From: Oligoflexia bacterium
GTDB taxonomy: Bacteria; Bdellovibrionota; UBA1018
Assembly: GCA_046317855.1 (NCBI GenBank)
Contig: JBKCVM010000147.1
Location: forward strand, 3,956 to 67,955
DNA: 64,000 nt
Direction of reading: 5' to 3'
Positions 26,293 to 43,456 of this stretch are shown here, piece by piece. The position numbers and the translations under genes were made by a program. The notes beneath the pieces were generated by a model that saw only the letters and a list, made by a program, of their open reading frames with translations, was not told the DNA's origin and did not search any database. Numbering within the stretch: position 1 is the stretch's first letter; each line of letters begins with the position of its first letter.

Positions 26293-26466
26293 TTCGGTGG
26301 CCTGATTGCAGGATTTCTCGCCAGATATCAAGGGCCGTATCATTAGGATTCTATTCGGTAAAAGAACAGAGCGGGTTCAGTTTTTCTAAACTGATTCAGA
26401 TCTCAGGATGGGTCTGAATTTTTGATTTCCGGCGCTTGAGAGTCCTAAATTCGGTCTAAAAGAGCC

Positions 26467-27279
26467 CTAGAGCGAACCCAGGGCCTCTAAAAACCGGTCG
26501 CCCACCCGCTCAAGCTCCTGTGGATGGGCCCGATAGTGCTCAGCGGCTGGGCCCGAGAGGATGAGGCCCGGCTCGGGCTTGAGTTCAATCGTCAATTGCG
26601 TGTCGCTTCGGGCTCCTAGCAATGCCTTGACGTTGGCAAAAACCGATAGGCCTCCGGGTTGAGCCACCGTGCCGTCAGGATTGAGTCTGGGACCAAAGAA
26701 AGTACCAAATACTGCGGGCTTGCCCTGCTGATCGCGCAAAAATACCTGTGAAACCATAAGGTCCGTCGGAAAGTTCTCGTCCACGGCCTTGATCAACGTT
26801 GCCATCCCCAACCAACGAAGACTTCGGATGTCGAGGTAAGCAAGAAACTGAGCGTTTCGAGAAAACGCCACTCCCGCGTTGACCTGAACTAGCGGCACAT
26901 CGGTTCCAAGCGGCATGCCGTTTGGCAGAGTGCTCGTGGGCTCCATTTGAACGTACTCGTTGTCGTAGAGCACGCTCATATTGAGATTGAAGCCAGCTTG
27001 AAAGGGTTGGGAACCCTGTACGAACGGGAGCGTGTAAAGAGTGCCATAATCTTTGATAGCAAATTCGTTCGAGAAATTGGCTCGCACTCGCTGGGTGAAC
27101 ACGAGAGAGACCTTGGCAGTGTTGAGGTCAGGAGAAATTTCAAAGACTGCTTTGTCGATATATTTTTTAGTGAACTTGCACCCTGAGCCGGTCAGGGCAA
27201 ACGAGGCCAGCAGGGCAGCAACTGCAAAAGATGCTAAGGGTGCGCAAGACTTAAAGGAGCGTAGAATTTTCATAGTCAT
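26467..27279 (-). CDS. Lipoprotein, hypothetical
   Basis: Signal peptide plus lipobox LTGSG|C after MTMKILRS. Start is trimmed from 27420 to avoid overlap with the upstream gene. Confidence 0.45.
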   Translation of the reverse strand: MTMKILRSFKSCAPLASFAVAALLASFALTGSGCKFTKKYIDKAVFEISPDLNTAKVSLVFTQRVRANFSNEFAIKDYGTLYTLPFVQGSQPFQAGFNLNMSVLYDNEYVQMEPTSTLPNGMPLGTDVPLVQVNAGVAFSRNAQFLAYLDIRSLRWLGMATLIKAVDENFPTDLMVSQVFLRDQQGKPAVFGTFFGPRLNPDGTVAQPGGLSVFANVKALLGARSDTQLTIELKPEPGLILSGPAAEHYRAHPQELERVGDRFLEALGSL

Positions 27280-27307
27280 AAAAGTATCTGGCCTGTGCCT
27301 TTTGTCG

Positions 27308-28147
27308 TCAATCGTGCTTTGGGGCTGCAGGAGCCGCGCCACGAACAAATGCGTCAACCTCACCCAGCACTTGTCGCAACGTGTCTTGAAGAGACGCAAA
27401 CTCTTGGGGCTTAGCCTCACGCGTTGATTCGTTCATGTAAAGCGCGCGATTTAGCTCGATTTGCACCGTGTGGTGCCCTTGGGCTGGCTTTCCGTAACGC
27501 TGTGTGATGCGACCGCCCTTGTACGGCCAATTAATCGAAACTCTTAATCCCGCTCTTGTAAAAGCCTGGACGATGAGAGCAACAAAATCGGGCCGCGAGG
27601 ATTTACCTTCAAAGTCTGAGATCACCACATCGGGTCGGCGAGCGCCGGTGTCGGCGTGGGCCGCAGTGCCCTGGCTGGGCATGCTATGGCAATCCAGGTG
27701 AAAAATCTGTCGCTTGGGGTCGTTGGCTCGGGCCTGGTTCACCAGTCGGGAGATTTCTAAATGAAATGGGTCATTGTAGAGCTCAATCAGCTTTTGGTGC
27801 AGCTCCATCGACAGAGGTGCATTGAGAATGGCCTGTCCTTGAGTGGTCTTGGCCCAGTGAAAGCCCTTGGTGTGAGTGCCCTCGACGAGCGGTGCACCTT
27901 GGACAGTGCCCGCATCAATATCATCGGGCGTTCTGTTGAGGTCCACTGCGTACCGGTGAGCTCGCGCGACCACGTTTGCAACTTTGAATTCTTGTAGGGC
28001 GGGAGCAAAAAGGCGGTCGACAAAGCGGTCGACATCCATCAGCAAAACCGATGGCGAAAGAGATTTGAGCCAAAAGGCCTCAGGCGGGATCCACTCGCCC
28101 GAGTGAGGAATGGTTGCGATCAGCGTTGCCGGCACGGCCTGCTGCAT
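27308..28147 (-). CDS. N-formylglutamate amidohydrolase family (HutG-like zinc hydrolase)
   Basis: IPHSGEWIP N-terminal motif, HSMP motif, and overall FGase-family layout. Confidence 0.55.
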   Translation of the reverse strand: MQQAVPATLIATIPHSGEWIPPEAFWLKSLSPSVLLMDVDRFVDRLFAPALQEFKVANVVARAHRYAVDLNRTPDDIDAGTVQGAPLVEGTHTKGFHWAKTTQGQAILNAPLSMELHQKLIELYNDPFHLEISRLVNQARANDPKRQIFHLDCHSMPSQGTAAHADTGARRPDVVISDFEGKSSRPDFVALIVQAFTRAGLRVSINWPYKGGRITQRYGKPAQGHHTVQIELNRALYMNESTREAKPQEFASLQDTLRQVLGEVDAFVRGAAPAAPKHD

Positions 28148-28197: not shown

Positions 28198-28950
28198 CTA
28201 CTTAATCTCGATCACTTTGTTAATGGCTTGTCCGTTCAATGAGCGAACATGAAATAAGGTTTGGCCTTTCCACGGGGACTTAAAAGGCACCTGTCGCTCA
28301 AAAGGGACGAGATTCTGAACACAAGAGGTAGCGCCCGGATGAGTCACTTCAGCAACCGGAAGCACCTCGACAATATTAGCCTTACGCGCCAGGATTTGGA
28401 TCTCTTTGAGTTTGACGCAGTCGCCCGGGAGTTTGCCCTTTAGAGTCACGGTCCCATTCTCGTAACTGAAGTCATCTACGATGGCGTAAAATTTTTCATC
28501 CGGGCTGTTTGGAGATTCTCCCGGTGTCTCTCGTGCGCGAGAAATAGGCATCAGACCGAACTCTTTTTCTTTGGCTTGATCGGTCCGGATTTTGACTGAG
28601 TAATTGCCGGCAGGCAGCATCCCCACATCCACGACCGAAGTGTAAGGGATCATCACTTGTAAGCACCAAGGGGTGTCTAGAACATACGCTTGCTGAGTCA
28701 CGTGAATCGTGCGGGTCTCATGCTCGACTTCGGCTTTGGTGGGGCCCACTTTGAAGCAAGTGTTGATGAAGCTTCCGCTTAAAACGACTTGAGCGTGGTC
28801 ATTGGAGTCAAAGCCGGGAGGTGCAAAGACGGCTTCAGGAATATCTCGGATGATAGATACGCCGCCCTGTGCAAAGGCCAACGGAGCAGCGGCTGATGCG
28901 ACAGTGAGTGCAGTTGCCAGGCTAAAAAGTTTTTTTGAGAGGGTCTTCAT
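28198..28950 (-). CDS. Secreted hypothetical protein
   Basis: Strong RBS AAAGGAGA; signal peptide MKTLSKKLFSLATALTVASAAAPLAFAQ. Confidence 0.45.
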   Translation of the reverse strand: MKTLSKKLFSLATALTVASAAAPLAFAQGGVSIIRDIPEAVFAPPGFDSNDHAQVVLSGSFINTCFKVGPTKAEVEHETRTIHVTQQAYVLDTPWCLQVMIPYTSVVDVGMLPAGNYSVKIRTDQAKEKEFGLMPISRARETPGESPNSPDEKFYAIVDDFSYENGTVTLKGKLPGDCVKLKEIQILARKANIVEVLPVAEVTHPGATSCVQNLVPFERQVPFKSPWKGQTLFHVRSLNGQAINKVIEIK

Positions 28951-29155
28951 GAGCGATTCTCCTTTGATGGACAGCTGATATACCGCGTGAATAGCAGGCG
29001 GCATGCCAAAGGGAAAGAACTTGGATCATTTCAAGTGTGTTTCGAAAACACCTGCAGATAGGCTCATTTTTGAAGAGGGACCCCAAAGAGCCCATCCTTT
29101 GATCAAGGGCGGGCGAGGCACCTTGACTCACGGGTTGGGCTTTTTTGTCTCGGGC

Positions 29156-29860
29156 TCACGCCGCACGATCTGCACTCTCGCCTGATGCCTCGATCCACTT
29201 GCCAAGAGCTTCGAGAGAAGCGGATGCGACTTGCCCAAACGCTATTCGAGAACGCGCTGCGCCAGGGCGATCAGACTCAGTGAGTACTGAGCCAGTAAAG
29301 ACAAACTTATTGGTGGAGTTGGGCTCCGAGAGAAAAATAGTGCACTCCGCTCCAATTAAGTGTTCTGGGATAGCGCGTTCGAGCGCCATGCCACCCATCG
29401 AGATATTTTTGGTGAAGGTTCGAAAAGCATGTTTGTCAGAAATCAGGACAACCTGAAGTTTGATGTTTTTGCGGGGATACTGGCGACGATCGGCCCAGCT
29501 TCTTCTGTCCACACCAGCGCCTCGCCTTTCGCCATCTGATGGAGTGACAGGGCGAGCTTGCCCCAGTGAGCGGACTTGCCCCGCTGAGGGATCGAGAGCA
29601 ACTGTGAGATACTTCTCGAGCCAAGCGATTTGAGCGGACGACATTGCCAGCTCATTGGGAATGGGTGGAAGGCCAAACTTTCGTAACTTGAATGCCGGAA
29701 TCTCAGCACAAGAAAACCACTCTGGCCGGTCCGAGCGGCAAGCCAGCCAGCGCGTCAGCTCTACGGGCTCAAGAGCCGACAGAAAATTGACGAGCTCAGC
29801 ATCGGTGAGCTGTTCTCTCATCTCTCCTGTGGCCGAGTTTTTAGCGCTCCAATAGAGCAT
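29156..29860 (-). CDS. PilZ-domain protein (c-di-GMP receptor-like), about 235 aa
   Basis: C-terminal PilZ signature RRQYPRKNIKLQ ... NISMGGMAL (RxxxR ... D/NxSxGG). Start ATG at 29860 with RBS AAGGAG 12 nt upstream. The longer ORF-track version would overlap the divergent OMP gene by 320 bp. Confidence 0.55.
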   Translation of the reverse strand: MLYWSAKNSATGEMREQLTDAELVNFLSALEPVELTRWLACRSDRPEWFSCAEIPAFKLRKFGLPPIPNELAMSSAQIAWLEKYLTVALDPSAGQVRSLGQARPVTPSDGERRGAGVDRRSWADRRQYPRKNIKLQVVLISDKHAFRTFTKNISMGGMALERAIPEHLIGAECTIFLSEPNSTNKFVFTGSVLTESDRPGAARSRIAFGQVASASLEALGKWIEASGESADRAA

Positions 29861-29930
29861 GAGCAGCGCAATCTCCTTAGTCACTGTTTCGGCATGCAGG
29901 CCAGAAATTTTGAGGCTATCCTTAGAAGTA

Positions 29931-30614
29931 ATGCGGAACCATGGAAGGTGCAGTCTATTTTCGATTATTCTTTTCTTGGCGCTTTGCGCGAGCACACTGA
30001 CTTCGAGTGCTAATCCAGCGCAGGAGGCGCTTGAACGGGATGCCCCCGTGGTTTTCAAAGACATGGGAGTGGTCCAGAACAAGGCAATGAACAAGGGGGG
30101 ACGCTTTCTCTTTGCCCCAGCTTTTTCGTTCGATTTCTCGGATGGTCCGTACACTATGTATTCTGTGGGTGCACGCATCGGTTATGCGCTTTCTGATTTT
30201 TGGGAAGTGTACCTCGTTGCAAATCCCAAATTTATTGCCAACAAGCGCGGGTTCTTCAGTTCTCTCGAAAGAATCACTGCCAATAACAACATTGATTTAG
30301 ATTTAGAGGGCTCCATCGCTCAGGGTGAGTACGGCATACAGCTGCTCTGGGCGCCTTTATACGGCAAGGACAGCCTAGGTATTTCTCGAATTTTGCGCAG
30401 TGATACTTTCCTTCGCTTTGGGGCCTCCCGCATTGCCTATGACGGAGCCTTTGGAGTCAAGTTGGGTCTAGGTATCGGAAAGACCTTCTTTCTCTCTAAG
30501 TGGGCGGGGCTGAGGGCGATCGTTGAGACCTCACTTACCCAGACGATCTACTCAGGGGTGAAAGAGTTCACGCCGATCACTTACGTTGAATCCGGGCTGG
30601 TGTTTTATCTGTAA
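29931..30614 (+). CDS. Small outer-membrane beta-barrel protein (OmpA-N/OmpW-like barrel, about 227 aa)
   Basis: Signal peptide MRNHGRCSLFSIILFLALCASTLTSSA; alternating amphipathic strands; C-terminal ...GLVFYL aromatic terminus. Confidence 0.5.
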   Translation: MRNHGRCSLFSIILFLALCASTLTSSANPAQEALERDAPVVFKDMGVVQNKAMNKGGRFLFAPAFSFDFSDGPYTMYSVGARIGYALSDFWEVYLVANPKFIANKRGFFSSLERITANNNIDLDLEGSIAQGEYGIQLLWAPLYGKDSLGISRILRSDTFLRFGASRIAYDGAFGVKLGLGIGKTFFLSKWAGLRAIVETSLTQTIYSGVKEFTPITYVESGLVFYL

Positions 30615-30638
30615 CCAAAATCTCAATTCGATGGAGCA

Positions 30639-31292
30639 ATGACTGTGAATCAAACGGGTGGCGTTTTTGAAGTCCTCATTCTGCATGGTGGAATCGGAAC
30701 CTGGCTGATCTTTGCCTCTGCTGCTGTTTTGATAGTGATCGGCGCGGAGAGGCTCTTTGCCCTATTTGTCGGGCTTTCATTTCGAACAAACGCCGCTGTT
30801 GAGCAGATTCGTTCTGCGATCTTGGCGCATAACTACACAGATGCGATTCAGGTCTGTAATGCTAAGGCTGCCGCACCCGATCTCCAAGTCGTCAAGGCCG
30901 CGCTCATGGCTGCCGAAAACGGTAGGGAGGCCATGCGCGCATCGCTGGGGGCGTCGCTCCTTGAGGTCACGCATCGGTGTGAAGCCAGGTTGTCTTACAT
31001 TGCTCTCCTTGCCAACGTAGCCACATTGCTTGGGCTTTTTGGAACCATCACGGGTTTGATCAAGACTTTCTCCGCGATGGCCAATGCCGATCCCAGCGAT
31101 AAGGCGCGACTGCTCGGAATGGGGATCTCAGAAGCGATGTACGCAACAGCTGCAGGTCTTGCGGTGGGGATCGCAGCGATGGTGGTTCATACTCTCTGTA
31201 CTGCCAAGGCTGACTCGATTGTTGGGCAGGCTCAAGATGTCGGCTTTAAAGTCATGACTTGGATTGAGCAGGCCGAGCGCAAGCATGGATGA
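30639..31292 (+). CDS. MotA/TolQ/ExbB family proton-channel protein (AglR-like)
   Basis: Three TM helices; conserved C-terminal LLGLFGTITGLIKTF...GISEAMYATAAGLAVGI. Confidence 0.8.
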   Translation: MTVNQTGGVFEVLILHGGIGTWLIFASAAVLIVIGAERLFALFVGLSFRTNAAVEQIRSAILAHNYTDAIQVCNAKAAAPDLQVVKAALMAAENGREAMRASLGASLLEVTHRCEARLSYIALLANVATLLGLFGTITGLIKTFSAMANADPSDKARLLGMGISEAMYATAAGLAVGIAAMVVHTLCTAKADSIVGQAQDVGFKVMTWIEQAERKHG

Positions 31293-31782
31293 TTTTTTTG
31301 AAAGGCCGCAACGAAAGCCGGTCCGCGATCTGAACTTAGTGCCCGTTATTGATATGTTAACGACGGTCCTTTTCTTTTTGCTGCTATCGACGAGTTTTTA
31401 TGGCTTTACGAAACTGACCGTTCCGCCGTCCAAGGTGAGCGTCAATACTGATCCCTTGGTGCCGCCGCCGTTGTCGGCGCGCTTATTGGTGGGCCCAGGC
31501 CCGGAGGGAAATCTCTCTGTGGTAATGAGCTGGGTGGGCGCTGAGCCTGGCAAGCTTGAAGCCACTGCAACCCAGGAGACGCTTGAGCCCAAGGTGAAGG
31601 GCTTGGTTGAACAGTTCTCGCAAAAGCACCCAATGGAGCGCACCGTCCAGCTCGGGCTAGCACCCGGTGTGAATTATCAAGCGCTGATTTGGGCGATGGA
31701 TGGGGCACGCCAAAAACTTCCTGACATCGTCCTCATCTCTCCAGAGGACGCCTTGGCCCGGTTGGGCTCGGGGGGTGGATGA
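31285..31782 (+). CDS. ExbD/TolR family protein 1 (AglQ/S-like)
   Basis: LNLVPVIDMLTTVLFFLL single TM helix typical of ExbD/TolR; 8-bp overlap with the upstream gene. Confidence 0.75.
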   Translation: MDDFFERPQRKPVRDLNLVPVIDMLTTVLFFLLLSTSFYGFTKLTVPPSKVSVNTDPLVPPPLSARLLVGPGPEGNLSVVMSWVGAEPGKLEATATQETLEPKVKGLVEQFSQKHPMERTVQLGLAPGVNYQALIWAMDGARQKLPDIVLISPEDALARLGSGGG

Positions 31783-32267
31783 AACTCTCGTTACTTCCCA
31801 AAAAAAAGCACAGGCATGTTTTAGATCTGCAGCTCACTGCGATGATCGATATCTTTTCTCTGATTGTGATCTTTCTGATTAAAGGGGCGGTTTTTGGCGC
31901 GTCCGATTTACCACTCGATCCATCCGTGAAGCTTCCGGAGAGCAAGAGTAAAGAAATGCTCGACACCGCTCCTCATGTTCAGCTCGTGAGTGGCCGAGTT
32001 CAGTTTTCTGGGGGCAAGTCAGAAGAATCCAAAGCAGGAGTTCCACTTTCGGAGATGGCGGGGGGTCCGGGTTCACAGCTCTTGCTACTTGAGGTGAAAA
32101 ACTACCTTGCCACGCTTGCTCCCGAAGCAAAGAGTTCCGGAGTGCTGCTCAGCTTTATTGCTGACCGAGCCACTCCCTACGCGGATGTGTTTAAAGTGGT
32201 AAAGTTTTTCAGAGAGTCCGGTTTTGACAGCATCCTTTTTGTTGCGTCGGGAAGGGATGGGGCATGA
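31779..32267 (+). CDS. ExbD/TolR family protein 2
   Basis: LDLQLTAMIDIFSLIVIFLI TM helix; 4-bp overlap with the upstream gene. Confidence 0.75.
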   Translation: MKLSLLPKKKHRHVLDLQLTAMIDIFSLIVIFLIKGAVFGASDLPLDPSVKLPESKSKEMLDTAPHVQLVSGRVQFSGGKSEESKAGVPLSEMAGGPGSQLLLLEVKNYLATLAPEAKSSGVLLSFIADRATPYADVFKVVKFFRESGFDSILFVASGRDGA

Positions 32268-33379
32268 CTTTGGGACGGGCTCAGTGGTTGTTAGTGGCCT
32301 ATGCAGCCTTCATGGCTCTACCTTTTTCGGTGCGGGCCGATGGGGTACTACAATCCAGGATCGATCATGATGATCGACTGGGTGCCAGGGTTCGTGTGCG
32401 TGAGATCGCATCGGGCAAACTCGATGCCAAGACTTGGAGATGGCTGGATCTGCAGGTTGCTGCGCATCCCGAATGGGGCGAGGACCTGACGACGCTTGTG
32501 ATCGATAAGGCAGCTGAAGGCCGAGGATGGACTGAGCCACTGAGTGCTCAAGAAAGCTTGGTGGCGGGTGATGAGGCCATGCAAGCCAAACGGTTTAATG
32601 AGGCGGCTCAAGCCTACCGTGCAGTCTTGAATGGCGCTCAGGCGGCTGAGCTTTTACCGGGGCTCGTATGGCATACCCGACTGGCTCTGGCTCGTGCGTT
32701 GTACGCAGCCAAGCGGTTCGATGAAGCTTATGTGGAAGCAAAGAAGATACCTGCAAAGTTTTCTCGGTACCGACATGTGCTTTTTATTAGAATGTGGGCT
32801 GCTTTCAGGGCAGGTCGAGTGGAGCTCGCGCTCGGAGAAATCGCAGCACAGAAGTCTGATTATTTTGGGCCGACGCTGGAGCCCGAGTCATCTCTTCTTT
32901 TGATCTATCTCTTAAAGCGACTTTGTCGTGAAGCTGAAGCTCTTGATGTCATTACTCAGATGGATCAAGTGCTCTCCGACCTAAAGTCCAGGAAGTTCGG
33001 ATTCAAAGACTGGGCAAAGCTAGAGGTTGGAACCCGAACCTTTTTAGAGATCTTGAATCAGCCTGACCCCTCACGAATCCAGTCGAAATCCATGCCGGCT
33101 CGGCAGCGCGAGCGAGCCTGGATTCAGCGGCTGTTGGAATCGAGCTTCGAAAAGAAGCGAGCCCAGTGGATCGACGAGCTTCCTCGAGTGATTGCCTATT
33201 CGAGGCTAGCGATCACCCCAGGGATGGGGTCAGCTCTCAAACCGATCGAAAAAATTAGTAGCCGTGAAAAGCTTCTAGAGCAGGGATATGAGGTTTGGCC
33301 GCTTCAAGGCGAGGAGCAGTGGCTCGATGAGCTCAACAGCTATCGCTATCTTGGGGACTCAGCGTGCGCGCAAAAATGA
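32264..33379 (+). CDS. Secreted TPR-repeat protein (371 aa)
   Basis: Signal peptide; TPR-like helices; 4-bp overlap with the upstream gene. Confidence 0.55.
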   Translation: MTLGRAQWLLVAYAAFMALPFSVRADGVLQSRIDHDDRLGARVRVREIASGKLDAKTWRWLDLQVAAHPEWGEDLTTLVIDKAAEGRGWTEPLSAQESLVAGDEAMQAKRFNEAAQAYRAVLNGAQAAELLPGLVWHTRLALARALYAAKRFDEAYVEAKKIPAKFSRYRHVLFIRMWAAFRAGRVELALGEIAAQKSDYFGPTLEPESSLLLIYLLKRLCREAEALDVITQMDQVLSDLKSRKFGFKDWAKLEVGTRTFLEILNQPDPSRIQSKSMPARQRERAWIQRLLESSFEKKRAQWIDELPRVIAYSRLAITPGMGSALKPIEKISSREKLLEQGYEVWPLQGEEQWLDELNSYRYLGDSACAQK

Positions 33380-36300
33380 ATTGGCGTTCTGCTGCTGTTT
33401 GCTGGGTCATGGCCGCGCCGCTCACCTTGGCATCAGCGGACTCACGAAAGGCGCTCGAGGAGCCGGCGCAGATTTCACATCAGTCGCCTGAGCAGCTCAG
33501 GGCTGCCGCTGAATCGATTGATGGCCTTAGAAAAGAGCTTGAAAGTCAGAATCGCCGCGCAAAGCCTGCTCGGGAGTCTCTGAGTCGCCAGATTCAGCTC
33601 ACCCTACAAGAGGCCAAGGTCCTGATCGCGCTGGGGCAAGCACTTTCGATCGCCCCAGCTGGTCAAACGCGTCCCAAGAAATCTTCACCCCAAGACGTTT
33701 CATCTGCTGACCAGCAGGCTCTTCAGCGAGCAGGCGCTCTACTGACTGATCTGTTAAATCATCCGGCGGCTGGGGCTGCTCTCTCGCCTACTCAGCGGGG
33801 AGTAGTGTTTCGGCTCAGAGGTACAGCAGCTTACGCCCTCTCTGATTACGCAGCTGCCCTCAAAGATTTTGAGCGCTCTCTCGAAAACGATCCGAGTTCT
33901 TCCGAGTCGGGTTGGACTGCGTTCATGGCAGCTGAAGAGTATTTTGAAATTTCTCAGTTTTCTCGTTCTGCTGAGTTGTATCAGCTTGCCCAGTCTCGCA
34001 GCCAGCCGGGGTCCCGCACTTGGGAGTTGTCCCGCTATAAATTGGCTTGGTGTTGGGTAAATCTAGAAAAAATCTCTGACGCCGAGAGAACTTTTTTAGA
34101 AATGATTCGCAACTCAAAGGACGAGCTATTGGCGCAAGACTCCGCTCGGGACCTGGCCTTTGTCTTGGCGCGAGTTCGAAATGAAAAGCAGCTGCTGGAA
34201 ATTTATGAACAGAAACTTTCAAAGACAGGGGCCAGAGGGTTAGCCTTTTTGAGAAAGGCGCTGGCCACCTTGGAGCGCCAGGGGCAGCTGGGAGCACGCT
34301 CAAGATTGAGAGATCGTGTGCTGGAGCTTACGGCTGACCCCGCCGCACGAGTGGCCGTTCTCTTGGACTCTGTGCAAGGTGTTTCTCGAGAGTACGCGTC
34401 TAAGGCCCATGCGCAACGTACCCTTGAAGTTTTGAAGGTAGTCGAAGCACTTCAAAAAACTGAGCCCCTCTCTTCTGAAATCCTCGAGCCGCTTGAGGCA
34501 GCGAGTGAGAGAGTCTGCAAGGTCTTTTCTGAAACCTATGCAGGTCGGACAAAAACTCCGGAGAACTTTACGAAATCAGAACTTGCTCATCAGCTTCAGG
34601 CCCTCTTTCAGGAACATTTGCGTGTTTTTGCAGCGAGCACCAAGAAAGCAAAGCTCCAAGAGTTCTGGCTTGAAGTGTGTGAACTTGAAAACGATACGCG
34701 CTGTTTGATGGCGTTGTCAGAGCAAATGATCCGGGACGATCAGTACCCAGAAGATCAGTTGCAGGCAGTCCGCCAGAGGGCCAAAGACGCACAACTTGTA
34801 GCCCTCGAGCGATTGCAATCGGCCAATGGTGGTTCCTATCGCTTGCAATACAAAAAAGCCCTGACAGAGCGTCTTGCAGATCCTCATGCACAGCGAGGCG
34901 CCGTTGCGGGTGCTAAACTAGCGCAGCTCCAGGTCGAAGAAAAAGATTATGCGGGCGCTGTCCAGACGTTAGGCCAGGTTCTCAAACGTGAGCCCAGTCA
35001 TTTATATTGGTATAGTTACAAATGGGCGCAACTTCAGGCGGGAGATTTTTTGGGTGTGATGGCTGGCCCGGAGGCCCTTGAGCTCAAAAATCTTTCTGGA
35101 GCTCCCGATCCAAGGCTCAGGGCCGTCCTTGCAGAAGCCTCGCTCAAGCTGGCTTCGGGGGCACGAAACTCTGATGATTTCAAAGCCATGGCGGCTCATT
35201 TACAAAAATTTGAGCAGCTTTCAGATGATTTGGCAAAAGTTCATTCAGCACGCGATGAGTGGGTTGCGGCTCTCTTGAGTAAGAAACTTCATGGAGAAGC
35301 GATCCGGAAAATTTCTGAGTTTCCTCTCGCTTGGCAGCAACGCTCAGAGGCGGGACAGTTGAAGTCGAGACTTCTTTTGCAGGTGATTGAAGAGGGGGAG
35401 TTTGGTCTTTTTGGAAAATGGATGCTCCACGTTCAGGATCCTAATGTGGCTCTCTTGGGGCTGCTTTACTGGGGAGGGGCCAAGTCGATTGGATTTGACC
35501 GGGTGAAGGCACTGGACTCAACTCAACGCTCACTTTGGTTGGGTGCGGCTGTTTTAACAAATCCCGACTGGGTGGACCGCTATTTTACGAAGTATCCTGG
35601 CGGCGATCGTCCGATTGCCGATCTGGCCAGGCGTTTTCTCGGCAAGCCTCCCTTGGGTGGGTCGAACGCTCCAGGGAACTCTCCTCTCACAGAGTATGAA
35701 AAGTCGGCGGCCAGGGTATCGCTCGGTAGGCCTCAGCGCGGAGCTCAGAGCGTCAAGCTCACTCAAAAAGTCATTGAAGCCGTCAAGCTGCACAGAAAGA
35801 AAATGGTTGCCGCTCTCAAGGGGCAGCTGCCCCGATCGCAAGTTCGTATTTTATCAGCACAGCGTCGACTCGAGGAGGGTGCTGTGCAATTGATCCTGCA
35901 GTCACCCGTCCCCAAGGGTCTTAGGCCAGAGCAATTGGCCGAGTACCAGGAGGGCTTAAAGCAGCTTGCAAGCGATCACTCTGCGCAGATCCAACAGCTC
36001 GAGGAGGCCCGGGTAAAAATCGAGCTAAAGGCAGATGAACAGAAAAGGGCGCAAGAGGCAGAAGATGCAGCAAAAACACTTCCGGCGCTCAGCGCCCCTG
36101 ATCGAATTGTCCCTTCAGCTCAATTGCGGCCCGAGGCCACTGCAAAGAACGTGGTGAGGATGGTGCGCGCTTGGAATCTTTGGGGGGCGCTGATGGAACT
36201 CGAGAGGCTGAAAGCCAAAAAAGCGGTGGACGGAGAGGACTATTGGAGGCTCCGGGCATGGGTGATTGCCTCACCGAGAGGGCCGGGGGCTGCGCCTTTT

Positions 36301-36387
36301 CAGCAGGATATTTTATTTCGATATGTTCATGACGAATTGACGGATGCCGGAATGCAGCGAGTGATTGAGGACTGGAAAAAGAAATGA
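33364..36387 (+). CDS. Large secreted TPR/coiled-coil protein (1007 aa), AgmU/GltD-like by architecture
   Basis: Signal peptide; TPR-like repeats throughout; 16-bp overlap with the upstream gene. Confidence 0.55.
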   Translation: MRAKMNWRSAAVCWVMAAPLTLASADSRKALEEPAQISHQSPEQLRAAAESIDGLRKELESQNRRAKPARESLSRQIQLTLQEAKVLIALGQALSIAPAGQTRPKKSSPQDVSSADQQALQRAGALLTDLLNHPAAGAALSPTQRGVVFRLRGTAAYALSDYAAALKDFERSLENDPSSSESGWTAFMAAEEYFEISQFSRSAELYQLAQSRSQPGSRTWELSRYKLAWCWVNLEKISDAERTFLEMIRNSKDELLAQDSARDLAFVLARVRNEKQLLEIYEQKLSKTGARGLAFLRKALATLERQGQLGARSRLRDRVLELTADPAARVAVLLDSVQGVSREYASKAHAQRTLEVLKVVEALQKTEPLSSEILEPLEAASERVCKVFSETYAGRTKTPENFTKSELAHQLQALFQEHLRVFAASTKKAKLQEFWLEVCELENDTRCLMALSEQMIRDDQYPEDQLQAVRQRAKDAQLVALERLQSANGGSYRLQYKKALTERLADPHAQRGAVAGAKLAQLQVEEKDYAGAVQTLGQVLKREPSHLYWYSYKWAQLQAGDFLGVMAGPEALELKNLSGAPDPRLRAVLAEASLKLASGARNSDDFKAMAAHLQKFEQLSDDLAKVHSARDEWVAALLSKKLHGEAIRKISEFPLAWQQRSEAGQLKSRLLLQVIEEGEFGLFGKWMLHVQDPNVALLGLLYWGGAKSIGFDRVKALDSTQRSLWLGAAVLTNPDWVDRYFTKYPGGDRPIADLARRFLGKPPLGGSNAPGNSPLTEYEKSAARVSLGRPQRGAQSVKLTQKVIEAVKLHRKKMVAALKGQLPRSQVRILSAQRRLEEGAVQLILQSPVPKGLRPEQLAEYQEGLKQLASDHSAQIQQLEEARVKIELKADEQKRAQEAEDAAKTLPALSAPDRIVPSAQLRPEATAKNVVRMVRAWNLWGALMELERLKAKKAVDGEDYWRLRAWVIASPRGPGAAPFQQDILFRYVHDELTDAGMQRVIEDWKKK

Positions 36388-36665
36388 TTGGCCTAAGAGT
36401 GATGGTCTTATCGCTGGGTATTGGTTTGGCTTTTGGTGCGCCCGCGCAGGCACAGAAACGCGTCAATAAGCCCGGAAACTTTTTGGACTTCGAGGCTGAT
36501 GTGATTGAGGGAGAGAAGCGTCGACCCGACCTATTTATTCAAATGGAGGGCGGAAGCGAGAGTTTGGACTCGGTGCTTTACTCCCGAGAAGACTTTAACG
36601 ATTACCATGAACAGGACCGCAAATGGCGCCCTAAGGCTCGACGTTTCAAGGGAGATAAAAAGTGA
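36384..36665 (+). CDS. Small secreted protein (93 aa) embedded in the operon
   Basis: Signal peptide ...APAQAQ; charged C-terminus; 4-bp overlaps with both flanking genes. Confidence 0.45.
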   Translation: MIGLRVMVLSLGIGLAFGAPAQAQKRVNKPGNFLDFEADVIEGEKRRPDLFIQMEGGSESLDSVLYSREDFNDYHEQDRKWRPKARRFKGDKK

Positions 36666-38380
36666 GGCAGCTCAAGATCTCTAGAAATGGACTTGAGCTT
36701 GCGGCCGTGAGCCTTGCGCAGCCCGTATCCACGTTAGGCAGATCGCCTTCTTGCGACGGAGTGCTGAGGGCTCCTGGGGTCAAACCGGTTCACTTCTTAT
36801 TGGAGGCTCAAGGGTCAGATTCAGGTCAATGGGTTCTGTTCGACATTTCAAACGACAGTGGCGAAGGCGTAGTGCTCGAGACTGGCAAGACAGAATTTAA
36901 GGGTTTCTTTTTTGAACTTTCAGAAGGCGTTCTCGACTCACCTGAAGAGATGGGTGGTGCGATCAGACGTAACCTGCAGGGACAGGGTGGCACTCAGCAG
37001 AGGGCGCAACAGCGGTTGAGCTTGGTTGAAGCCGTCCGAATTCGTCGTGATTCAGGAGCAGTTCAAGAGGTTTCTCATCTGCCTATTTCGGGTCCGTCTT
37101 TTTTGAGAGTTCGAAAATTGCGGCCTTTTGAAGAGATCGCGGGGCTCAAGCTTCTGTATCGAAAAGGGGGAGTTGCGATAGAATTTCAGGCGACTCGAGG
37201 CGGCCCTCAGCGCGTGACTCTCATCAAAAACTCAAATCCTGGAGAAGTGCTTCCGGGTGCGTCGGTTGAACTGGGAAAGTCGGACTGGATACGAATGGAG
37301 TACGGTCCTGACGATCTTTACTTTAGGTGGGTTTCGCCTGTACCTCGGGCTCCGATTCCTAGAGAAGTGGTTGGCAATCCCATCCTGCGCATTGGCTTTC
37401 TCGTGGGGTTTCTGGTCGCAGGGGGAACCGCTTCTTGGGTTGCATACAAGATCAAGAATCCTTCGGAGGCCATTCAGATGCCACCTCCCCGAATTGCAAA
37501 GATCGAAGTCAAAGAGGCCCCTCCGCCGCCACCCGTGTCCGAGTCGCTGAGTAGACCTAAGTCCGCTCAGTCAGAGGCCGCCGGTCCTTCGGCTGCTCCT
37601 CGAGTGGCCCCAAAAGGGGTGGCTAAAACCCGAGCGTTGCCCACTCGACCCGGATTGGTTGCGCCAGTGGCGCCAACCGATGTGAATCAGCTCGGTCTTT
37701 TGGGCGCACTCAAGTCAAAAGCTCCAAAGCAGGGCGAGGGAGTCCGAGCGGATCAGATTTTTGATGAAGGGATGGTAAGCCAGGCTGCAGGCGCTAAGAC
37801 CGGAAGTATTGCGCTTAAGACGCCGCCCTCTGGAGCGCTTGATCTTTCAAAGGCCGGCGGTCAGAAAACTGCGCAGGGTGATGGGCTTCAAGCGCTGGCG
37901 ACGACTCTTTCTGGCAAAGCTAAATACTCCCCTTCGAACGTGGGTGCAGTGGTCTCGGGCTCGGGGGGTAAGCTTCTTGGCTCAGGGCTTGAAGGTCTCG
38001 GAAAAAACTCTTCCTTGGCTTCGGGTAAGGGTGGAGGCGAAAGCTTAGGTTTAGATGATGGCAGCGATAGCGAAGTGCAGGGCGGCTTGGATCGTGAAAC
38101 AGTCCGTCGCGTCATTAAGTCCAATCGAGGAAAGATCCGAGCTTGTTATGAACGCGCATTGCTGAGCCAACCTCAGCTGGCCGGTCGAGTCGTCACCCTC
38201 TTTGAGGTGAGCGCCAAAGGAACGGTTCTTTCTGCATCAGTAAAAGCGTCAGATGTCCAATCGCAAACTCTAGAGAGCTGTCTCGTCGAAGTGGTGCGTG
38301 GAATGGCGTTTCCTTCCTCTCCCACTGGCGCATCTACGAAGGTCAGCTATCCGTTTGTATTCCAGGCCCGCGGCAACTAA
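36662..38380 (+). CDS. FHA-domain protein with Pro-rich linker and C-terminal AgmX/PglI-type (TonB-C-like) domain
   Basis: N-terminal FHA-like TLGRSPSCDGVL...VHFLL; central TM helix; PPPPPV and AP-rich linker; C-terminal LDRETVRRVIKSNRGKIRACYERAL...VSYPFVF resembling the TonB/AgmX C-terminal fold. Confidence 0.6.
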   Translation: MRQLKISRNGLELAAVSLAQPVSTLGRSPSCDGVLRAPGVKPVHFLLEAQGSDSGQWVLFDISNDSGEGVVLETGKTEFKGFFFELSEGVLDSPEEMGGAIRRNLQGQGGTQQRAQQRLSLVEAVRIRRDSGAVQEVSHLPISGPSFLRVRKLRPFEEIAGLKLLYRKGGVAIEFQATRGGPQRVTLIKNSNPGEVLPGASVELGKSDWIRMEYGPDDLYFRWVSPVPRAPIPREVVGNPILRIGFLVGFLVAGGTASWVAYKIKNPSEAIQMPPPRIAKIEVKEAPPPPPVSESLSRPKSAQSEAAGPSAAPRVAPKGVAKTRALPTRPGLVAPVAPTDVNQLGLLGALKSKAPKQGEGVRADQIFDEGMVSQAAGAKTGSIALKTPPSGALDLSKAGGQKTAQGDGLQALATTLSGKAKYSPSNVGAVVSGSGGKLLGSGLEGLGKNSSLASGKGGGESLGLDDGSDSEVQGGLDRETVRRVIKSNRGKIRACYERALLSQPQLAGRVVTLFEVSAKGTVLSASVKASDVQSQTLESCLVEVVRGMAFPSSPTGASTKVSYPFVFQARGN

Positions 38381-38433: not shown

Positions 38434-39321
38434 TTGGGAAAAATGCGGCTTTCATTTCTGCTCTGCGCTTTCAGTTTGGCTTTTGCTTGGCATCCTTCAT
38501 CGCATGCTGCGTCAACATTGAAAGTACTGACTTATAATGTTTGGGGGTTGCCACGGCCGCTTTCAAAAGATCCGGTGGGTCGGCTCGAGGCCTTTTGTGC
38601 TTTTCTCAAAAAGCAATCTCTGCAGAGCGCTCATCCGTGGGATGTAGTCTTACTCCAGGAGGTTTGGAAGCCGTGGATGGCGCGGGGCCTGAGATATTGC
38701 GGTTACCCTTTTTCTGCCCGGCTAGACAAAAAAAGCTTTGGCACGGGTTTGATGATTTTGAGTCTGCATCCAGTGACGAGTGCCAACCAATTCAATTTTG
38801 AAAATGAGCCGTCCTGGTGGGACTCTCTGACGACTGGAGAGGCCTTCTCGGATAAAGGCGTTCTCTCGGCAACGATTGAACACCCCGACTTTGGACCGAT
38901 CTTTTTTGCTAATACGCACTTGGTGGCCAATTATGGCCTCTATAAAACTTTCGAAGACGAGAGGCGCGGGCAATTCAGAGAGCTTGCAGCTCATCTGTAT
39001 GATCGTGCGCGCGGCATCCCTCAGATTTTGGGAGGTGATCTAAACGTCGCTCCGTATGGACTCAAGTACACTTTGCTTTGGGAAGAGCTTCATTTCTTAT
39101 TCCCAGGATTTCGACGTTTTATGTCGATGCTCCCGGTGAGCACTCGCTCACTGAGTAATCCTTTTTCTAATGAAGAAGAAGGGCACATTGACCATCTTTT
39201 TGGTCTAAACGGCGCTAAGCCAATCAAGGGTTCTGTGGTCTTGGATGGTCGGCGCGAGATTTTCTCTGACCACTATGGCTGGGAAACTTCTTTCGAGGTA
39301 GAGCCCCTCAACTTAGACTGA
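38434..39321 (+). CDS. Secreted endonuclease/exonuclease/phosphatase (EEP) family hydrolase
   Basis: Signal peptide; LKVLTYNVWGLP N-terminal EEP motif; catalytic His/Asp near the C-terminus (SDHYG). Confidence 0.65.
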   Translation: MGKMRLSFLLCAFSLAFAWHPSSHAASTLKVLTYNVWGLPRPLSKDPVGRLEAFCAFLKKQSLQSAHPWDVVLLQEVWKPWMARGLRYCGYPFSARLDKKSFGTGLMILSLHPVTSANQFNFENEPSWWDSLTTGEAFSDKGVLSATIEHPDFGPIFFANTHLVANYGLYKTFEDERRGQFRELAAHLYDRARGIPQILGGDLNVAPYGLKYTLLWEELHFLFPGFRRFMSMLPVSTRSLSNPFSNEEEGHIDHLFGLNGAKPIKGSVVLDGRREIFSDHYGWETSFEVEPLNLD

Positions 39322-40679: not shown

Positions 40680-41303
40680 ATGCAACGTCGTTCTATCGTC
40701 TACGTGCTCACTTCATTGGTTTCGTTGGTTTCGTTATCGGGCACCCAAACAGCGTTTGCGCAGTCGATGCGCTCTGAGCTTTCGCAAGAATTTGTTTCTG
40801 ACTACGCTGGCAGGCCTGCCGACTACGCCACCTTCATCAAGAGTGGGCTGATTGGCGCAGCCACTCAATGTGGCTTTGAGCTTTTAGATGGGCGAGATCA
40901 GCGTCTTCCGAGTGCGGTGCTTTCGCGTGACGTTGAGCAGGTGCTGGCTCGCGTGAAAGAGAATGGTAAAGTGATCCCTCACGTACTTTTTGACACTTTG
41001 GTCAGTCAGAACCGTCGAGACGTGACTTCGTTTGTCTGGAAAAAGAACGGAGGCCAGATCCTTGAAATGTCCGTGAACACTGACTTCAACGACATTGCCG
41101 TCCAGGCCCACTTGGGAGGACGAGTTGCTTTCTCTCGGAGCTCACGCGGTAATCACGAAGTCCGAACCGAGTGGCGCGTGCGCGCTCCGAACGGAGGTGT
41201 CAAGAAGGTCACTGAAGACGAATTCCGTGACTATCTGAAGACGAGGGTCGTGGATTTTTACGGCGAGCGCATTTGTAGAGATCTCTACCGACCTGCAAAT
41301 TAA
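40680..41303 (+). CDS. Secreted hypothetical protein (207 aa)
   Basis: Signal peptide ...SGTQTAFAQ; no recognisable motif. Confidence 0.4.
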   Translation: MQRRSIVYVLTSLVSLVSLSGTQTAFAQSMRSELSQEFVSDYAGRPADYATFIKSGLIGAATQCGFELLDGRDQRLPSAVLSRDVEQVLARVKENGKVIPHVLFDTLVSQNRRDVTSFVWKKNGGQILEMSVNTDFNDIAVQAHLGGRVAFSRSSRGNHEVRTEWRVRAPNGGVKKVTEDEFRDYLKTRVVDFYGERICRDLYRPAN

Positions 41304-41320
41304 GTGAGTTCACTGCGGGG

Positions 41321-41737
41321 GTGCTCATGAGTCGGTGCCGGGTTTGGACTTTTCTGTTTCGTCTGTCACTCTGTCTCTTTTCTGTGGCTAGCCCCCACGC
41401 TCTGGGTTCTGTCCCAAGAGAAGACGAGTGGCGAGATGTTCCGTCAAGCTTGGAGTCGCCTCATCCCTATCCAAACCGGGCTAACCTGTTGTTTGAGGCC
41501 AGTGTTCCTGGGGCAAGATGGATGCGGGTGGTGTTCTCAAAAATCGAAACTGAGTTTTTCTACGACAAGATCACGATCGAAAATCCAGGCGGGCATGTTT
41601 TTGATTCGTTCACGGGTTTTCCAAAAAATCTGGTCAGCCTACCCGTGCCCGGGGAAGTGCTGATGATCCGACTTCGGTCAGACCGCACGACCCGGGGCTA
41701 CGGATTTTCAGTGGCTAAGTTGCAATACTCCTTGTGA
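41321..41737 (+). CDS. Small secreted protein with Cys-less CUB-like domain
   Basis: After the signal peptide: LESPHPYPN...W.RVVF..IETEFFYDKITIENPGG...LMIRLRSDRTTRGYGF. This mirrors the CUB blocks (SPnYP; W.I; yDyveI.DG; F.SD.s...GF) but without the four Cys. Confidence 0.4.
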   Translation: MLMSRCRVWTFLFRLSLCLFSVASPHALGSVPREDEWRDVPSSLESPHPYPNRANLLFEASVPGARWMRVVFSKIETEFFYDKITIENPGGHVFDSFTGFPKNLVSLPVPGEVLMIRLRSDRTTRGYGFSVAKLQYSL

Positions 41738-41742
41738 GCTCC

Positions 41743-42549: not shown

Positions 42550-42676
42550 GAGAAACTCCTTTCGGTACTGCCAGGGGTGGCTCGAGATTAGTTAATAATT
42601 TTTAACAATAATAAAAAATAAACGCCAGTTTTTTATGGGCGCCTATAAAAACAAATAAAATCAAATATTTAACGAT

Positions 42677-43270: not shown

Positions 43271-43456
43271 GTCCTACTGATCGGCAGGCGGGTGCAGGCT
43301 CTCTACTGTGTCCAGAAAGACAATTTGAAAGAAATGAGGGGCTCCCCCTAAATCCTGGGGAGGATTCAATTTGGGGTGTAGTCTCTCGTGGGCGGTGGCT
43401 GAGAAATCAGCGAGGATTGTCGCAACCCCCCAGTTCAAAATGAAGGGAGTCGCAGG

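What the first reader, a model, noticed from the sequence alone, without database searches (positions are those of the whole stretch)
30639..38380. Eight-gene TolQ-ExbD-ExbD-TPR-TPR-small-FHA/AgmX operon: a gliding-type (Agl/Glt-like) envelope motor cluster rather than classical Tol-Pal or TonB
All eight genes are tightly coupled, with 4- to 16-bp overlaps between adjacent genes. The cluster has one MotA/TolQ/ExbB channel and two ExbD/TolR paralogs. These are followed by two secreted TPR proteins (371 and 1007 aa), a 93-aa secreted protein, and a protein combining an FHA domain, a Pro-rich linker and an AgmX/PglI-type TonB-C-like domain. There is no tolA, tolB or pal, and no TonB-dependent receptor. 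That argues for an Agl motor plus Glt-complex-like machine of the kind described in Myxococcus xanthus (aglRQS, gltD-G / agmU-aglT-pglI-agmX) and Bdellovibrio. The FHA fusion to the TonB-like module implies control by phospho-threonine signalling. The combination of one TolQ-like and two TolR-like genes in a single operon with the Glt-like genes, at this compactness, is not a textbook arrangement.
Basis: partly seen in the sequence, partly recalled or inferred. Interest (0 to 1): 0.6.

Follow-up and report, generated by a model that had tools for sequence, protein, structure and literature searches.

The report
Agl-Glt-type gliding motor gene cluster
This is a compact operon from an uncultured Bdellovibrio-like bacterium that encodes a proton-driven envelope motor and its periplasmic and outer-membrane partners, of the kind that powers gliding in Myxococcus; such clusters have been described in Bdellovibrio since 2011, so it is a new example and not a new kind of system.

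Summary
Only seven ORFs lie in 30639-38380. The eighth gene of the conserved unit is an outer-membrane beta-barrel gene just upstream (29931-30614). The order is GltB-like OMP, AglR (TolQ-like), two TolR-like stators, GltC-like TPR, GltD-like 1007-aa helical protein, GltF/CglF (93 aa), GltG (FHA-like, TMH, Pro-rich linker, AgmX/PglI C-terminal domain). This order is kept in about 23 Bdellovibrionota MAG loci, down to 26% GltG identity. A canonical c-di-GMP-type PilZ gene lies next to the block in 20 of these loci and in the window.

Single-locus aglRQS+glt "core complexes", and four expanded sets in B. bacteriovorus, were published in 2011 (Luciano et al.). A PilZ gene at the 5' end of one Bdellovibrio gliding operon was noted in 2012. 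The FHA domain is an ancestral feature of GltG/PglI, not a new fusion. Here it lacks the Ser and Asn that bind phosphothreonine, so phospho-control is not implied.

Verdict: new member of a known kind, differing in gene order, the absence of GltE and a degenerate FHA. Interest is low to moderate.

The parts
29156..29860 (-). PilZ-domain protein (234 aa), transcribed divergently from the operon; predicted c-di-GMP receptor
   Evidence: PF07238 PilZ on the 99%- and 60%-identical contigs. RxxxR (RQYPR, residue 126) and NxSxxG (NISMGG, residue 152) motifs are 26 aa apart. The same motif pair occurs in all 20 PilZ neighbours of related loci. A PilZ gene lies next to the block in 20 of the related loci.
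29861..29930 (.). 70-bp divergent intergenic region; presumed promoter region for both the PilZ gene and the operon (inferred)
   Evidence: Sequence read. The consensus scan found no sigma-70-like site here, and counts over the whole region are at chance level.
29931..30614 (+). GltB/GltA-like outer-membrane beta-barrel protein (227 aa, N-terminal signal peptide by eye); first gene of the conserved block
   Evidence: TIGR04565 OMP_myx_plus 50.6 bits (cutoff 60). 20/20 orthologues hit it, best E 7.7e-16. It is always the first gene of the block. Its size matches the GltB homologues of HD100, 235-278 aa.
30639..31292 (+). AglR-like MotA/TolQ/ExbB proton-channel subunit (217 aa)
   Evidence: PF01618 86.5 bits. 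TolQ equivalog 53 bits (cutoff 221) and ExbB 36 bits (cutoff 206), so it is neither. 49-80% identical in 23 related loci. 36% identical to the AglR of a Bd0828-type cluster, L034.
31285..31782 (+). First TolR/ExbD-like stator subunit (165 aa), AglQ/AglS-type
   Evidence: PF02472 29.0 bits against a cutoff of 25.4. The TMH Asp (VIDML) is invariant in 24 sequences. Best match is the first ExbD of L034.
31779..32267 (+). Second TolR/ExbD-like stator subunit (162 aa), AglQ/AglS-type
   Evidence: PF02472 39.6 bits. The TMH Asp (MIDIF) is invariant in 24 sequences. 27% identical to the first paralogue. Best match is the second ExbD of L034.
32264..33379 (+). Short GltC-like periplasmic helical/TPR protein (371 aa, signal peptide by eye)
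   Evidence: NF033756 gliding_GltC E 1.1e-8 for residues 128-241 against model positions 317-430. 21/21 orthologues hit it, best E 9.9e-13, all far below the equivalog cutoff of 450. No orthologue hit the GltE model.
33376..36387 (+). GltD-like large periplasmic all-helical/TPR protein (1003 aa; 1007 aa from the GTG at 33364)
   Evidence: AF2 model is all-alpha, mean pLDDT 82. hhalign of the family profile against the GltD-position protein of L034 gives probability 93.8%, E 1.7e-7 over 526 columns. It sits directly upstream of gltF-gltG, as in M. xanthus and Bd1474-1481. No orthologue hit the GltE model. No NCBIfam GltD model appeared in any search, even for the GltD-position proteins of L034 and L037.
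36384..36665 (+). GltF (= CglF) homologue, 93-aa secreted protein with the motif LDFEADVIEGE..RPD
   Evidence: NF033764 gliding_CglF E 0.003. 23/25 orthologues hit it, best E 3.4e-8. CglF is GltF (PMC4488436). BLASTP to the GltF of L037 gives E 7e-5.
36662..38380 (+). GltG/PglI-type transducer (572 aa): degenerate FHA-like domain (1-88), second beta domain (121-224), TMH (235-265), Pro-rich conserved-motif linker (278-467), AgmX/PglI TonB-CTD-like domain with two invariant Cys (468-570)
   Evidence: NF033768 91.6 bits (cutoff 40). GltG model E 1.2e-30. FHA 22.0 bits. AF2 domain layout. Foldseek hits to TonB-CTDs (TM 0.6-0.65) and FHA domains. C495 and C540 are invariant.

Best explanation
The locus is an 'expanded core' Agl-Glt cluster of an uncultured Bdellovibrionota (Oligoflexia) bacterium. 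It is one operon of eight genes (29931-38380) plus a divergently transcribed PilZ gene.

Shown by homology:
- An AglR-type TolQ-like channel and two TolR-like subunits, each keeping the membrane Asp. This is the makeup of a proton-driven 5:2-type stator.
- A GltG-type bitopic protein with a cytoplasmic FHA-like domain, a second beta domain, one TMH, a long periplasmic linker and a TonB-CTD-like AgmX/PglI domain.
- Secreted GltD-like, GltC-like and GltF proteins.
- A GltB-like outer-membrane barrel.

Inferred by analogy with the M. xanthus data and models:
- The stator acts on the TMH and membrane-proximal domain of GltG.
- The GltG linker, which carries conserved linear motifs, wraps the GltD scaffold. 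GltF bridges GltG and GltD to GltC.
- GltC docks on the outer-membrane barrel, so proton flow is turned into movement of an outer-membrane or surface component.

The most likely output is surface gliding, as in Bdellovibrio. The adjacent PilZ protein is the probable input for cyclic dinucleotide control.
For: Domain and family hits.

Family-wide model hits: GltC 21/21, CglF/GltF 23/25, OMP_myx_plus 20/20.

GltD-like: hhalign probability 93.8% to the protein upstream of bona fide GltE-GltF-GltG in L034.

GltG layout by AF2 and Foldseek matches the published M. xanthus GltG layout of FHA, second FHA, TMH, disordered linker and TonB-CTD.

The TMH Asp is invariant in both TolR-like paralogues.

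The eight-gene order is kept in about 23 loci down to 26% GltG identity, with 4-8-bp overlaps in the window.

The part list equals the one Luciano et al. gave for Bdellovibrio clusters and for 'potential gliders', minus GltE and GltA.

All 21 PilZ proteins examined (window plus 20 loci) have both c-di-GMP motifs. Bd1482 PilZ at the 5' end of a Bdellovibrio gliding operon, and DgcA control of gliding, are published.

The predicted-disordered GltG linker holds conserved motifs such as GLLGALK. This fits the published model in which it binds GltD.
Against: - No experiment exists for this clade, and the organism is known only as a MAG.
- Luciano et al. stress that the core complex alone does not drive motility and occurs in non-gliders.
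- GltE, GltA, GltH, I, J, K, CglB, AglZ and MglA were not found in the window. The rest of the genome is unseen.
- All Myxococcus equivalog cutoffs are missed by a wide margin (GltG 107 vs 650; GltC 34 vs 450; CglF 17.5 vs 90).
- The GltD assignment rests on one profile comparison plus position and size.
- Which of the several Bdellovibrio clusters actually powers gliding has not been settled genetically in the papers I read.
Confidence: 0.65

Rival explanations
1. The machine is the same Agl-Glt-type motor but its job is not locomotion. It could move or assemble a surface polymer or coat (as Agl-Nfs does in Myxococcus sporulation), maintain the envelope, or serve a predation step such as prey entry or exit.
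For: Luciano et al. note that paralogous clusters in M. xanthus have non-motility roles and that the core complex occurs in non-gliders. Agl-Nfs transports spore-coat polymer (PMC3858216, listed). Bdellovibrio carries four or more such sets, which suggests specialisation. This cluster lacks GltE, and the window holds no adhesin such as CglB.
Against: The part list (R, Q/S, B, C, D, F, G) is the one Luciano et al. tied to 'potential gliders', and it includes GltF and GltB, which are restricted to Myxococcales and Bdellovibrionales. PilZ adjacency parallels the Bdellovibrio gliding operon Bd1474-1482.
Confidence: 0.28
2. A divergent TonB-ExbB-ExbD energy-transduction system for outer-membrane uptake.
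For: It has a MotA/ExbB and ExbD gene set. The C-terminal domain has a TonB-CTD-like fold (TM 0.6-0.65). There are weak TonB_C and TIGR01352 hits.
Against: TonB_C scores 15.5 bits (cutoff 24.6) and TIGR01352 24.7 (cutoff 27.1). The ExbB equivalog scores 36 (cutoff 206) and ExbD 13 (cutoff 153-216). The domain passes the AgmX/PglI model instead and has two invariant Cys. No TonB-dependent receptor or Fur was found in the flanks covered or in about 45 scanned ORFs. The block is obligately linked to GltC, GltD, GltF and GltB-like genes.
Confidence: 0.03
3. A divergent Tol-Pal system, with the 1007-aa TPR protein acting like CpoB/YbgF.
For: There is a weak TolQ hit (53 bits). The TPR region of the 1007-aa family hits YbgF/CpoB in 18/21 members. 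TolA-CTD appears among the fold matches.
Against: TolQ scores 53 (cutoff 221), TolR 17.8 (cutoff 127) and YbgF 25.8 (cutoff 90). No TolB or Pal was found in the block or in any of about 23 syntenic loci. There are two different TolR-like genes where Tol-Pal has one. The specific GltC, GltF and GltG model hits point elsewhere.
Confidence: 0.03

Closest known systems
B. bacteriovorus HD100 'expanded core' Agl-Glt clusters, especially Bd1474-1482 (PilZ-AglR-AglQ-AglS-GltD-GltF-GltG-GltB-GltC) and Bd0413-0420 (Luciano et al. 2011, PMC3169522; Hobley et al. 2012, PMC3271064)
   Same: Same phylum. Same part list in one locus (AglR, two TolR-like, GltD, GltF, GltG, GltB, GltC). No GltE in three of the four HD100 sets. 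Similar protein sizes (GltD 987-1237 aa, GltB 235-278 aa, one GltC of 355 aa). A PilZ gene sits at the 5' end of Bd1474-1481.
   Different: Gene order: here B-R-Q/S-Q/S-C-D-F-G, against R-Q-S-D-F-G-B-C. GltG here is 572 aa, and 546-628 aa in the related loci. The HD100 homologues are 376, 408, 488 and 707 aa. I could not obtain HD100 sequences, so orthology to any one HD100 set is untested.
M. xanthus Agl-Glt gliding machinery (aglRQS MXAN_6860-6862; G1 gltD-J MXAN_4870-4862; G2 gltK/B/A/C MXAN_2538-2541)
   Same: Homologous AglR and AglQ/S-type stator. GltG with FHA, second beta domain, TMH, linker and TonB-CTD-like domain. GltF/CglF. GltC. A GltB/GltA-type barrel. A large periplasmic GltD-type helical protein. 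The D-F-G gene order is kept locally.
   Different: Here there is one operon where M. xanthus has three loci. The window has no GltE, GltA, GltH, GltI, GltJ, GltK or CglB. GltC is 371 aa against 673 aa. The FHA lacks the Ser and Asn of the phosphopeptide site, whereas a Myxococcota-type GltG (L037) keeps SRxH and NG. All Myxococcus equivalog cutoffs are missed.
Ancestral 'core complex' aglRQS + gltD, E, G, C in Gammaproteobacteria, Geobacter and Fibrobacter (Luciano et al. 2011)
   Same: A single-locus, probably single-operon, union of the TolQR-like motor with GltD, GltG and GltC.
   Different: The window adds GltF and a GltB-like barrel, genes the authors found only in Myxococcales and Bdellovibrionales. 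It lacks GltE and the extra gene seen in those core clusters.
Tol-Pal and TonB-ExbBD systems
   Same: The same stator superfamily (MotA/TolQ/ExbB plus TolR/ExbD with a membrane Asp). A bitopic, Pro-rich transducer ending in a TonB/TolA-like C-terminal fold.
   Different: No TolB, Pal or TonB-dependent receptor. Two non-identical TolR-like subunits. A cytoplasmic FHA-like extension on the transducer. All equivalog cutoffs are missed.

Membership tests
Agl-Glt machinery / expanded core complex (Luciano 2011) | TolQ-like AglR plus two distinct TolR-like subunits (AglQ, AglS) with the membrane Asp | tested here: met
   PF01618 86.5 bits; PF02472 29.0 and 39.6 bits. The paralogues are 27% identical. 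The Asp is invariant in both across 24 sequences.
Agl-Glt machinery / expanded core complex (Luciano 2011) | GltG: cytoplasmic FHA, one TMH, Pro-rich linker, AgmX/PglI TonB-like C-terminal domain | tested here: met
   NF033768 91.6 bits (cutoff 40). GltG model E 1.2e-30 but only 107 bits (equivalog cutoff 650), aligned only over residues 399-571. FHA 22.0 bits (cutoff 20.7). AF2 and Foldseek agree on the layout.
Agl-Glt machinery / expanded core complex (Luciano 2011) | GltD: large secreted TPR/helical scaffold encoded next to gltF/gltG | tested here: inconclusive
   All-alpha AF2 model, pLDDT 82. hhalign 93.8%, E 1.7e-7, to the GltD-position protein of L034, but only a short motif (E 0.054) to the Myxococcota-type L037. 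No NCBIfam GltD model surfaced in any search. M. xanthus and HD100 GltD sequences were not obtainable.
Agl-Glt machinery / expanded core complex (Luciano 2011) | GltC: periplasmic TPR connector | tested here: met
   NF033756 hit in 21/21 orthologues, best E 9.9e-13. The match is partial (model positions 317-430) and far below the equivalog cutoff, so this is homology, not equivalog membership.
Agl-Glt machinery / expanded core complex (Luciano 2011) | GltF/CglF small secreted protein | tested here: met
   NF033764 hit in 23/25 orthologues, best E 3.4e-8. BLASTP E 7e-5 to the GltF of L037. Below the equivalog cutoff of 90.
Agl-Glt machinery / expanded core complex (Luciano 2011) | GltB/GltA outer-membrane beta-barrel | tested here: inconclusive
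   TIGR04565 50.6 bits (cutoff 60); 20/20 orthologues hit. Size and linkage fit GltB. No direct comparison with MXAN_2539/2540 was possible.
Agl-Glt machinery / expanded core complex (Luciano 2011) | GltE TPR lipoprotein | tested here: not met
   NF033758 exists and hits the GltE of L034 and L037. Neither TPR family of this cluster hits it. Three of the four HD100 clusters also lack GltE.
M. xanthus-type complete gliding apparatus | GltA, H, I, J, K, CglB, AglZ, MglA/MglB present in the genome | not testable with these tools
   None found in the window, but only 64 kb of the genome is available. Bdellovibrio also lacks GltH, I, J and K.
M. xanthus-type complete gliding apparatus | Gliding phenotype dependent on the genes | not testable with these tools
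   Uncultured MAG.
TonB-ExbB-ExbD | Bona fide TonB C-terminal domain, ExbB/ExbD equivalogs, TonB-dependent receptor partner | tested here: not met
   TonB_C 15.5 (cutoff 24.6); TIGR01352 24.7 (cutoff 27.1); ExbB 36 (cutoff 206); ExbD 13 (cutoff 153-216). No receptor found in the window ORFs scanned.
Tol-Pal | TolQ/TolR equivalogs with TolA, TolB, Pal and CpoB | tested here: not met
   TolQ 53 (cutoff 221); TolR 17.8 (cutoff 127); YbgF 25.8 (cutoff 90). No TolB or Pal in the block or in the syntenic loci.
Phosphothreonine-binding FHA domain | Conserved Arg (GR), Ser (SRxH) and Asn (NG) of the phosphopeptide site | tested here: not met
   GR and His are invariant. The Ser position is K/R/A/E followed by Pro/Ala/Ser, and the NG loop is variable in length and sequence across the clade. 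The Pfam match covers only model positions 2-41 of 67. The residue roles come from established FHA structural knowledge.
c-di-GMP-binding PilZ domain (neighbour gene) | RxxxR and (D/N)xSxxG motifs | tested here: met
   RQYPR, then NISMGG 26 aa downstream. Both motifs are present in 21/21 sequences. Pfam PilZ on near-identical contigs. Ligand binding itself was not tested.

The most novel reading that the evidence does not exclude
This conserved eight-gene-plus-PilZ module would be a separate, self-contained Agl-Glt lineage, not orthologous to any of the four B. bacteriovorus HD100 sets. In it the Myxococcus cytoplasmic platform (GltI, GltJ, AglZ, MglA) would be replaced by a PilZ protein that binds the degenerate, phosphate-blind FHA-like domain of GltG. 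A cyclic dinucleotide would then directly clutch a minimal trans-envelope motor. That would make it the smallest complete Agl-Glt machine and a tractable target for structural work.
Probability: 0.12. Interest if true: 0.55.

Novelty: new member of a known kind. Interest (0 to 1): 0.25.

Why it matters
It extends the known Agl-Glt family to uncultured freshwater Bdellovibrionota. It shows one fixed, very compact arrangement of motor, GltB, C, D, F and G, with a c-di-GMP-type PilZ neighbour, kept across deep divergence. The practical value is as a minimal, co-transcribed parts list for modelling or reconstituting the motor-to-outer-membrane force path, and as a lead on how cyclic dinucleotides reach the gliding motor in Bdellovibrio-like predators. 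It does not change current understanding of these systems.

Tried and rejected
The second, narrower alignment found only Bdellovibrionota MAGs. Direct sequence comparison with Bd and MXAN proteins was therefore impossible. I used two metagenomic proxy loci instead: L034 (Bd0828-type order) and L037 (M. xanthus G1-type order).
- A fold search of the GltD-like model against afdb50 was not available on the machine, so the GltD test fell back on hhalign.
- Profile searches of the large protein database with the GltD-like and GltC-like families returned only close, unnamed relatives.
- The loci around P0052 and P0058, whose shorter GltG-like proteins share only the C-terminal domain, showed other cluster variants without a recognisable motor on the contig. 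I did not pursue them.
- The promoter and terminator scan gave counts at chance level and no operon boundary signal.
- I considered reading the 371-aa TPR protein as GltE on the basis of its position. I rejected this because all 21 orthologues hit the GltC model and none hit the GltE model.
- TonB and Tol-Pal readings were rejected on curated cutoffs and the absence of partner genes.

Full report
**What is in the sequence**

The + strand between 29931 and 38380 carries eight co-oriented ORFs. They are 29931-30614 (227 aa from the Met that begins a signal peptide), 30639-31292 (217 aa), 31285-31782 (165 aa), 31779-32267 (162 aa), 32264-33379 (371 aa), 33376-36387 (1003 aa; 1007 from an upstream GTG), 36384-36665 (93 aa) and 36662-38380 (572 aa).

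The junctions overlap by 8, 4, 4, 4 (or 16), 4 and 4 bp, and 24 bp separate the first two genes. Gene calls on a 99%-identical JGI contig give the same starts and overlaps.

A 234-aa PilZ gene (29156-29860, minus strand) diverges from the operon across a 70-bp spacer. Consensus promoter and terminator scans were at chance level and say nothing about transcript ends.

**Origin**

The 371-aa product is 100% identical to an NCBI protein from an 'Oligoflexia bacterium' MAG. All 33 related loci found among GTDB species representatives are Bdellovibrionota or Oligoflexia MAGs. The closest has 61% GltG identity.

The rest of the window looks like ordinary chromosome: seryl-tRNA synthetase, RNase J, a DEAD-box helicase, OxyR/AhpC-like genes and a purine-catabolism set.

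**Identity of each product**

- The 217-aa protein is a MotA/TolQ/ExbB channel (86.5 bits). It misses the TolQ (53 vs 221) and ExbB (36 vs 206) equivalog cutoffs.
- The next two products are ExbD/TolR-family (29.0 and 39.6 bits) and are 27% identical to each other. Each keeps the transmembrane Asp in all 24 sequences examined.
- The 371-aa protein hits the NCBIfam GltC model, and so do all 21 orthologues tested (best E 9.9e-13). None hits the GltE model.
- The 93-aa family hits the CglF model in 23 of 25 members. CglF is another name for GltF (PMC4488436). It shares the motif DFE-D-v-G...RP with the GltF proteins of two comparator loci.
- The upstream OMP family hits TIGR04565, a beta-barrel domain model (OMP_myx_plus), in 20 of 20 members, slightly below the cutoff.
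- The 572-aa protein passes the AgmX/PglI C-terminal domain model (91.6 vs 40). It matches the GltG model at E 1.2e-30 over its last 170 residues and has a marginal FHA hit.

The AlphaFold model of the 572-aa protein shows five parts:
- a beta domain at 1-88;
- a better-defined beta domain at 121-224;
- a TMH at 235-265;
- a disordered stretch at 278-467;
- a confident C-terminal domain at 468-570.

Foldseek matches this model to TonB and TolA C-terminal domains and to FHA domains. This is the layout published for M. xanthus GltG: FHA, second FHA, TMH, disordered linker, TonB-CTD-like domain (PMC11761067).

The 1007-aa protein is a confident all-helical solenoid. No member of its family hit the GltE model. 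No NCBIfam GltD model surfaced in any search, even for the GltD-position proteins of the comparator loci. Its family profile aligns with 93.8% probability (E 1.7e-7, 526 columns) to the protein that sits upstream of bona fide GltE-GltF-GltG in locus L034. I therefore call it GltD-like, with moderate confidence.

**Conservation**

In every related locus with enough flank (about 23), the order OMP, AglR, ExbD, ExbD, GltC-like, GltD-like, GltF, GltG is unchanged, down to 26% GltG identity. A relative with 60% GltG identity keeps the block while its downstream genes differ.

A PilZ gene lies next to the block, upstream-divergent or just downstream, in 20 of the related loci. All 21 PilZ proteins (the window's plus those 20) carry RxxxR and (D/N)xSxxG motifs at canonical spacing. 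The conserved unit is thus eight genes plus a PilZ neighbour.

**How it probably works**

What homology shows is a proton-channel stator with two different TolR-like plugs, a bitopic transducer, three secreted partners and an outer-membrane barrel.

What I infer from M. xanthus genetics, two-hybrid data and structural models is the following force path:
- The stator engages the TMH and the membrane-proximal beta domain of GltG.
- The long GltG linker wraps the GltD scaffold. The linker is predicted disordered yet holds invariant motifs such as GLLGALK.
- GltF bridges GltG and GltD to GltC.
- GltC docks on the barrel, carrying proton-driven movement to the cell surface.

Gliding is the most likely output. 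Bdellovibrio glides, carries such clusters, and regulates gliding through DgcA/Bd0367 signalling, with a PilZ gene (Bd1482) at the head of one gliding operon. A non-locomotory use of the same machine is a serious rival. Paralogous sets in Myxococcus do other jobs, and the bare core complex occurs in non-gliders.

The FHA domain is not a new fusion. It is part of PglI/GltG in M. xanthus. In this clade the GR pair and the His are invariant. The Ser of SRxH is replaced by K/R/A/E, followed by Pro, Ala or Ser, and the NG loop is not conserved. A Myxococcota-type GltG (L037) keeps both. By established knowledge of FHA structure, those residues contact the phosphothreonine. No kinase or phosphatase domain turned up in the flanks or in the ORFs scanned. 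Phospho-threonine control is therefore not implied.

The claim that motor and Glt genes in one compact operon is unusual is contradicted by Luciano et al. 2011. They described exactly that as the ancestral core complex and listed four expanded sets in B. bacteriovorus HD100 with the same components.

**Differences from the known examples**

- Gene order: here it is B-R-Q/S-Q/S-C-D-F-G. Bd1474-1482 runs R-Q-S-D-F-G-B-C.
- GltE is absent.
- GltC is short (371 aa).
- GltG is 572 aa here and 546-628 aa in the related loci, with a degenerate FHA. The HD100 homologues are 376-707 aa.

I could not obtain HD100 or M. xanthus sequences. Whether this clade is orthologous to one HD100 set or forms a further lineage is open.

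**Rejected readings**

TonB-ExbBD and Tol-Pal fail their curated cutoffs. They also lack partner genes, both in the window and in the syntenic loci.

**Verdict**

The feature is real and correctly recognised as Agl-Glt-like, but it is a new member of a kind described since 2011. Interest 0.25.

Noticed in passing
window 29156-29860 (-), and PilZ genes in L003-L030: A PilZ-domain gene with intact c-di-GMP motifs is adjacent to the Agl-Glt block in the window and in 20 related loci. It sits upstream-divergent in some and immediately downstream in others. This linkage is much wider than the single Bd1482 case noted in the literature.
   Followed up: partly
window 38434-39321 (+) and 44625-45848 (-): Two endonuclease/exonuclease/phosphatase-family genes. 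The first carries a signal peptide (by eye) and starts 53 bp after gltG. A 60%-identity relative has one about 4.5 kb downstream, but more distant loci gave no match to it.
   Followed up: partly
window 14283-17877 (+): Three consecutive, slightly overlapping ORFs of 422, 393 and 402 aa with no Pfam match at E<=0.01. They may be an uncharacterised operon.
   Followed up: no
window 24562-26343 (-), 26467-27420 (-), 40680-44553: Several sizeable ORFs (593, 317, 207, 268, 197 and 269 aa) with no Pfam match. The 268-aa ORF at 28198-29004 matched only PF27154 ORF11_beta on the near-identical contig.
   Followed up: no
window 45849-46586 (+): A 245-aa protein with a prokaryotic N-terminal methylation (type IV pilin-like) motif, directly upstream of a purine-catabolism set: urate oxidase N-terminal domain protein, amidohydrolase, allantoicase, DUF6986.
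   Followed up: no
L034 (Logan SRR33696287) 3-7194; L037 (JGI 3300037478): Metagenomic loci with other Agl-Glt layouts. L034 runs GltD-GltE-GltF-GltG-AglR-ExbD-ExbD and is followed by lptC/lptA-lptB-rpoN. L037 runs GltD-GltE-GltF-GltG. L038 and L040 show further variants around shorter GltG-like proteins, with no motor gene on the contig.
   Followed up: partly
window 36662-38380, residues 330-470 of the product: The periplasmic linker of GltG is predicted disordered (pLDDT below 50) yet contains invariant or near-invariant short motifs across 13 sequences (GL(N)..., DVNxxGLLGALK, PPSG, TTLxG). This fits folding upon binding to a partner.
   Followed up: partly
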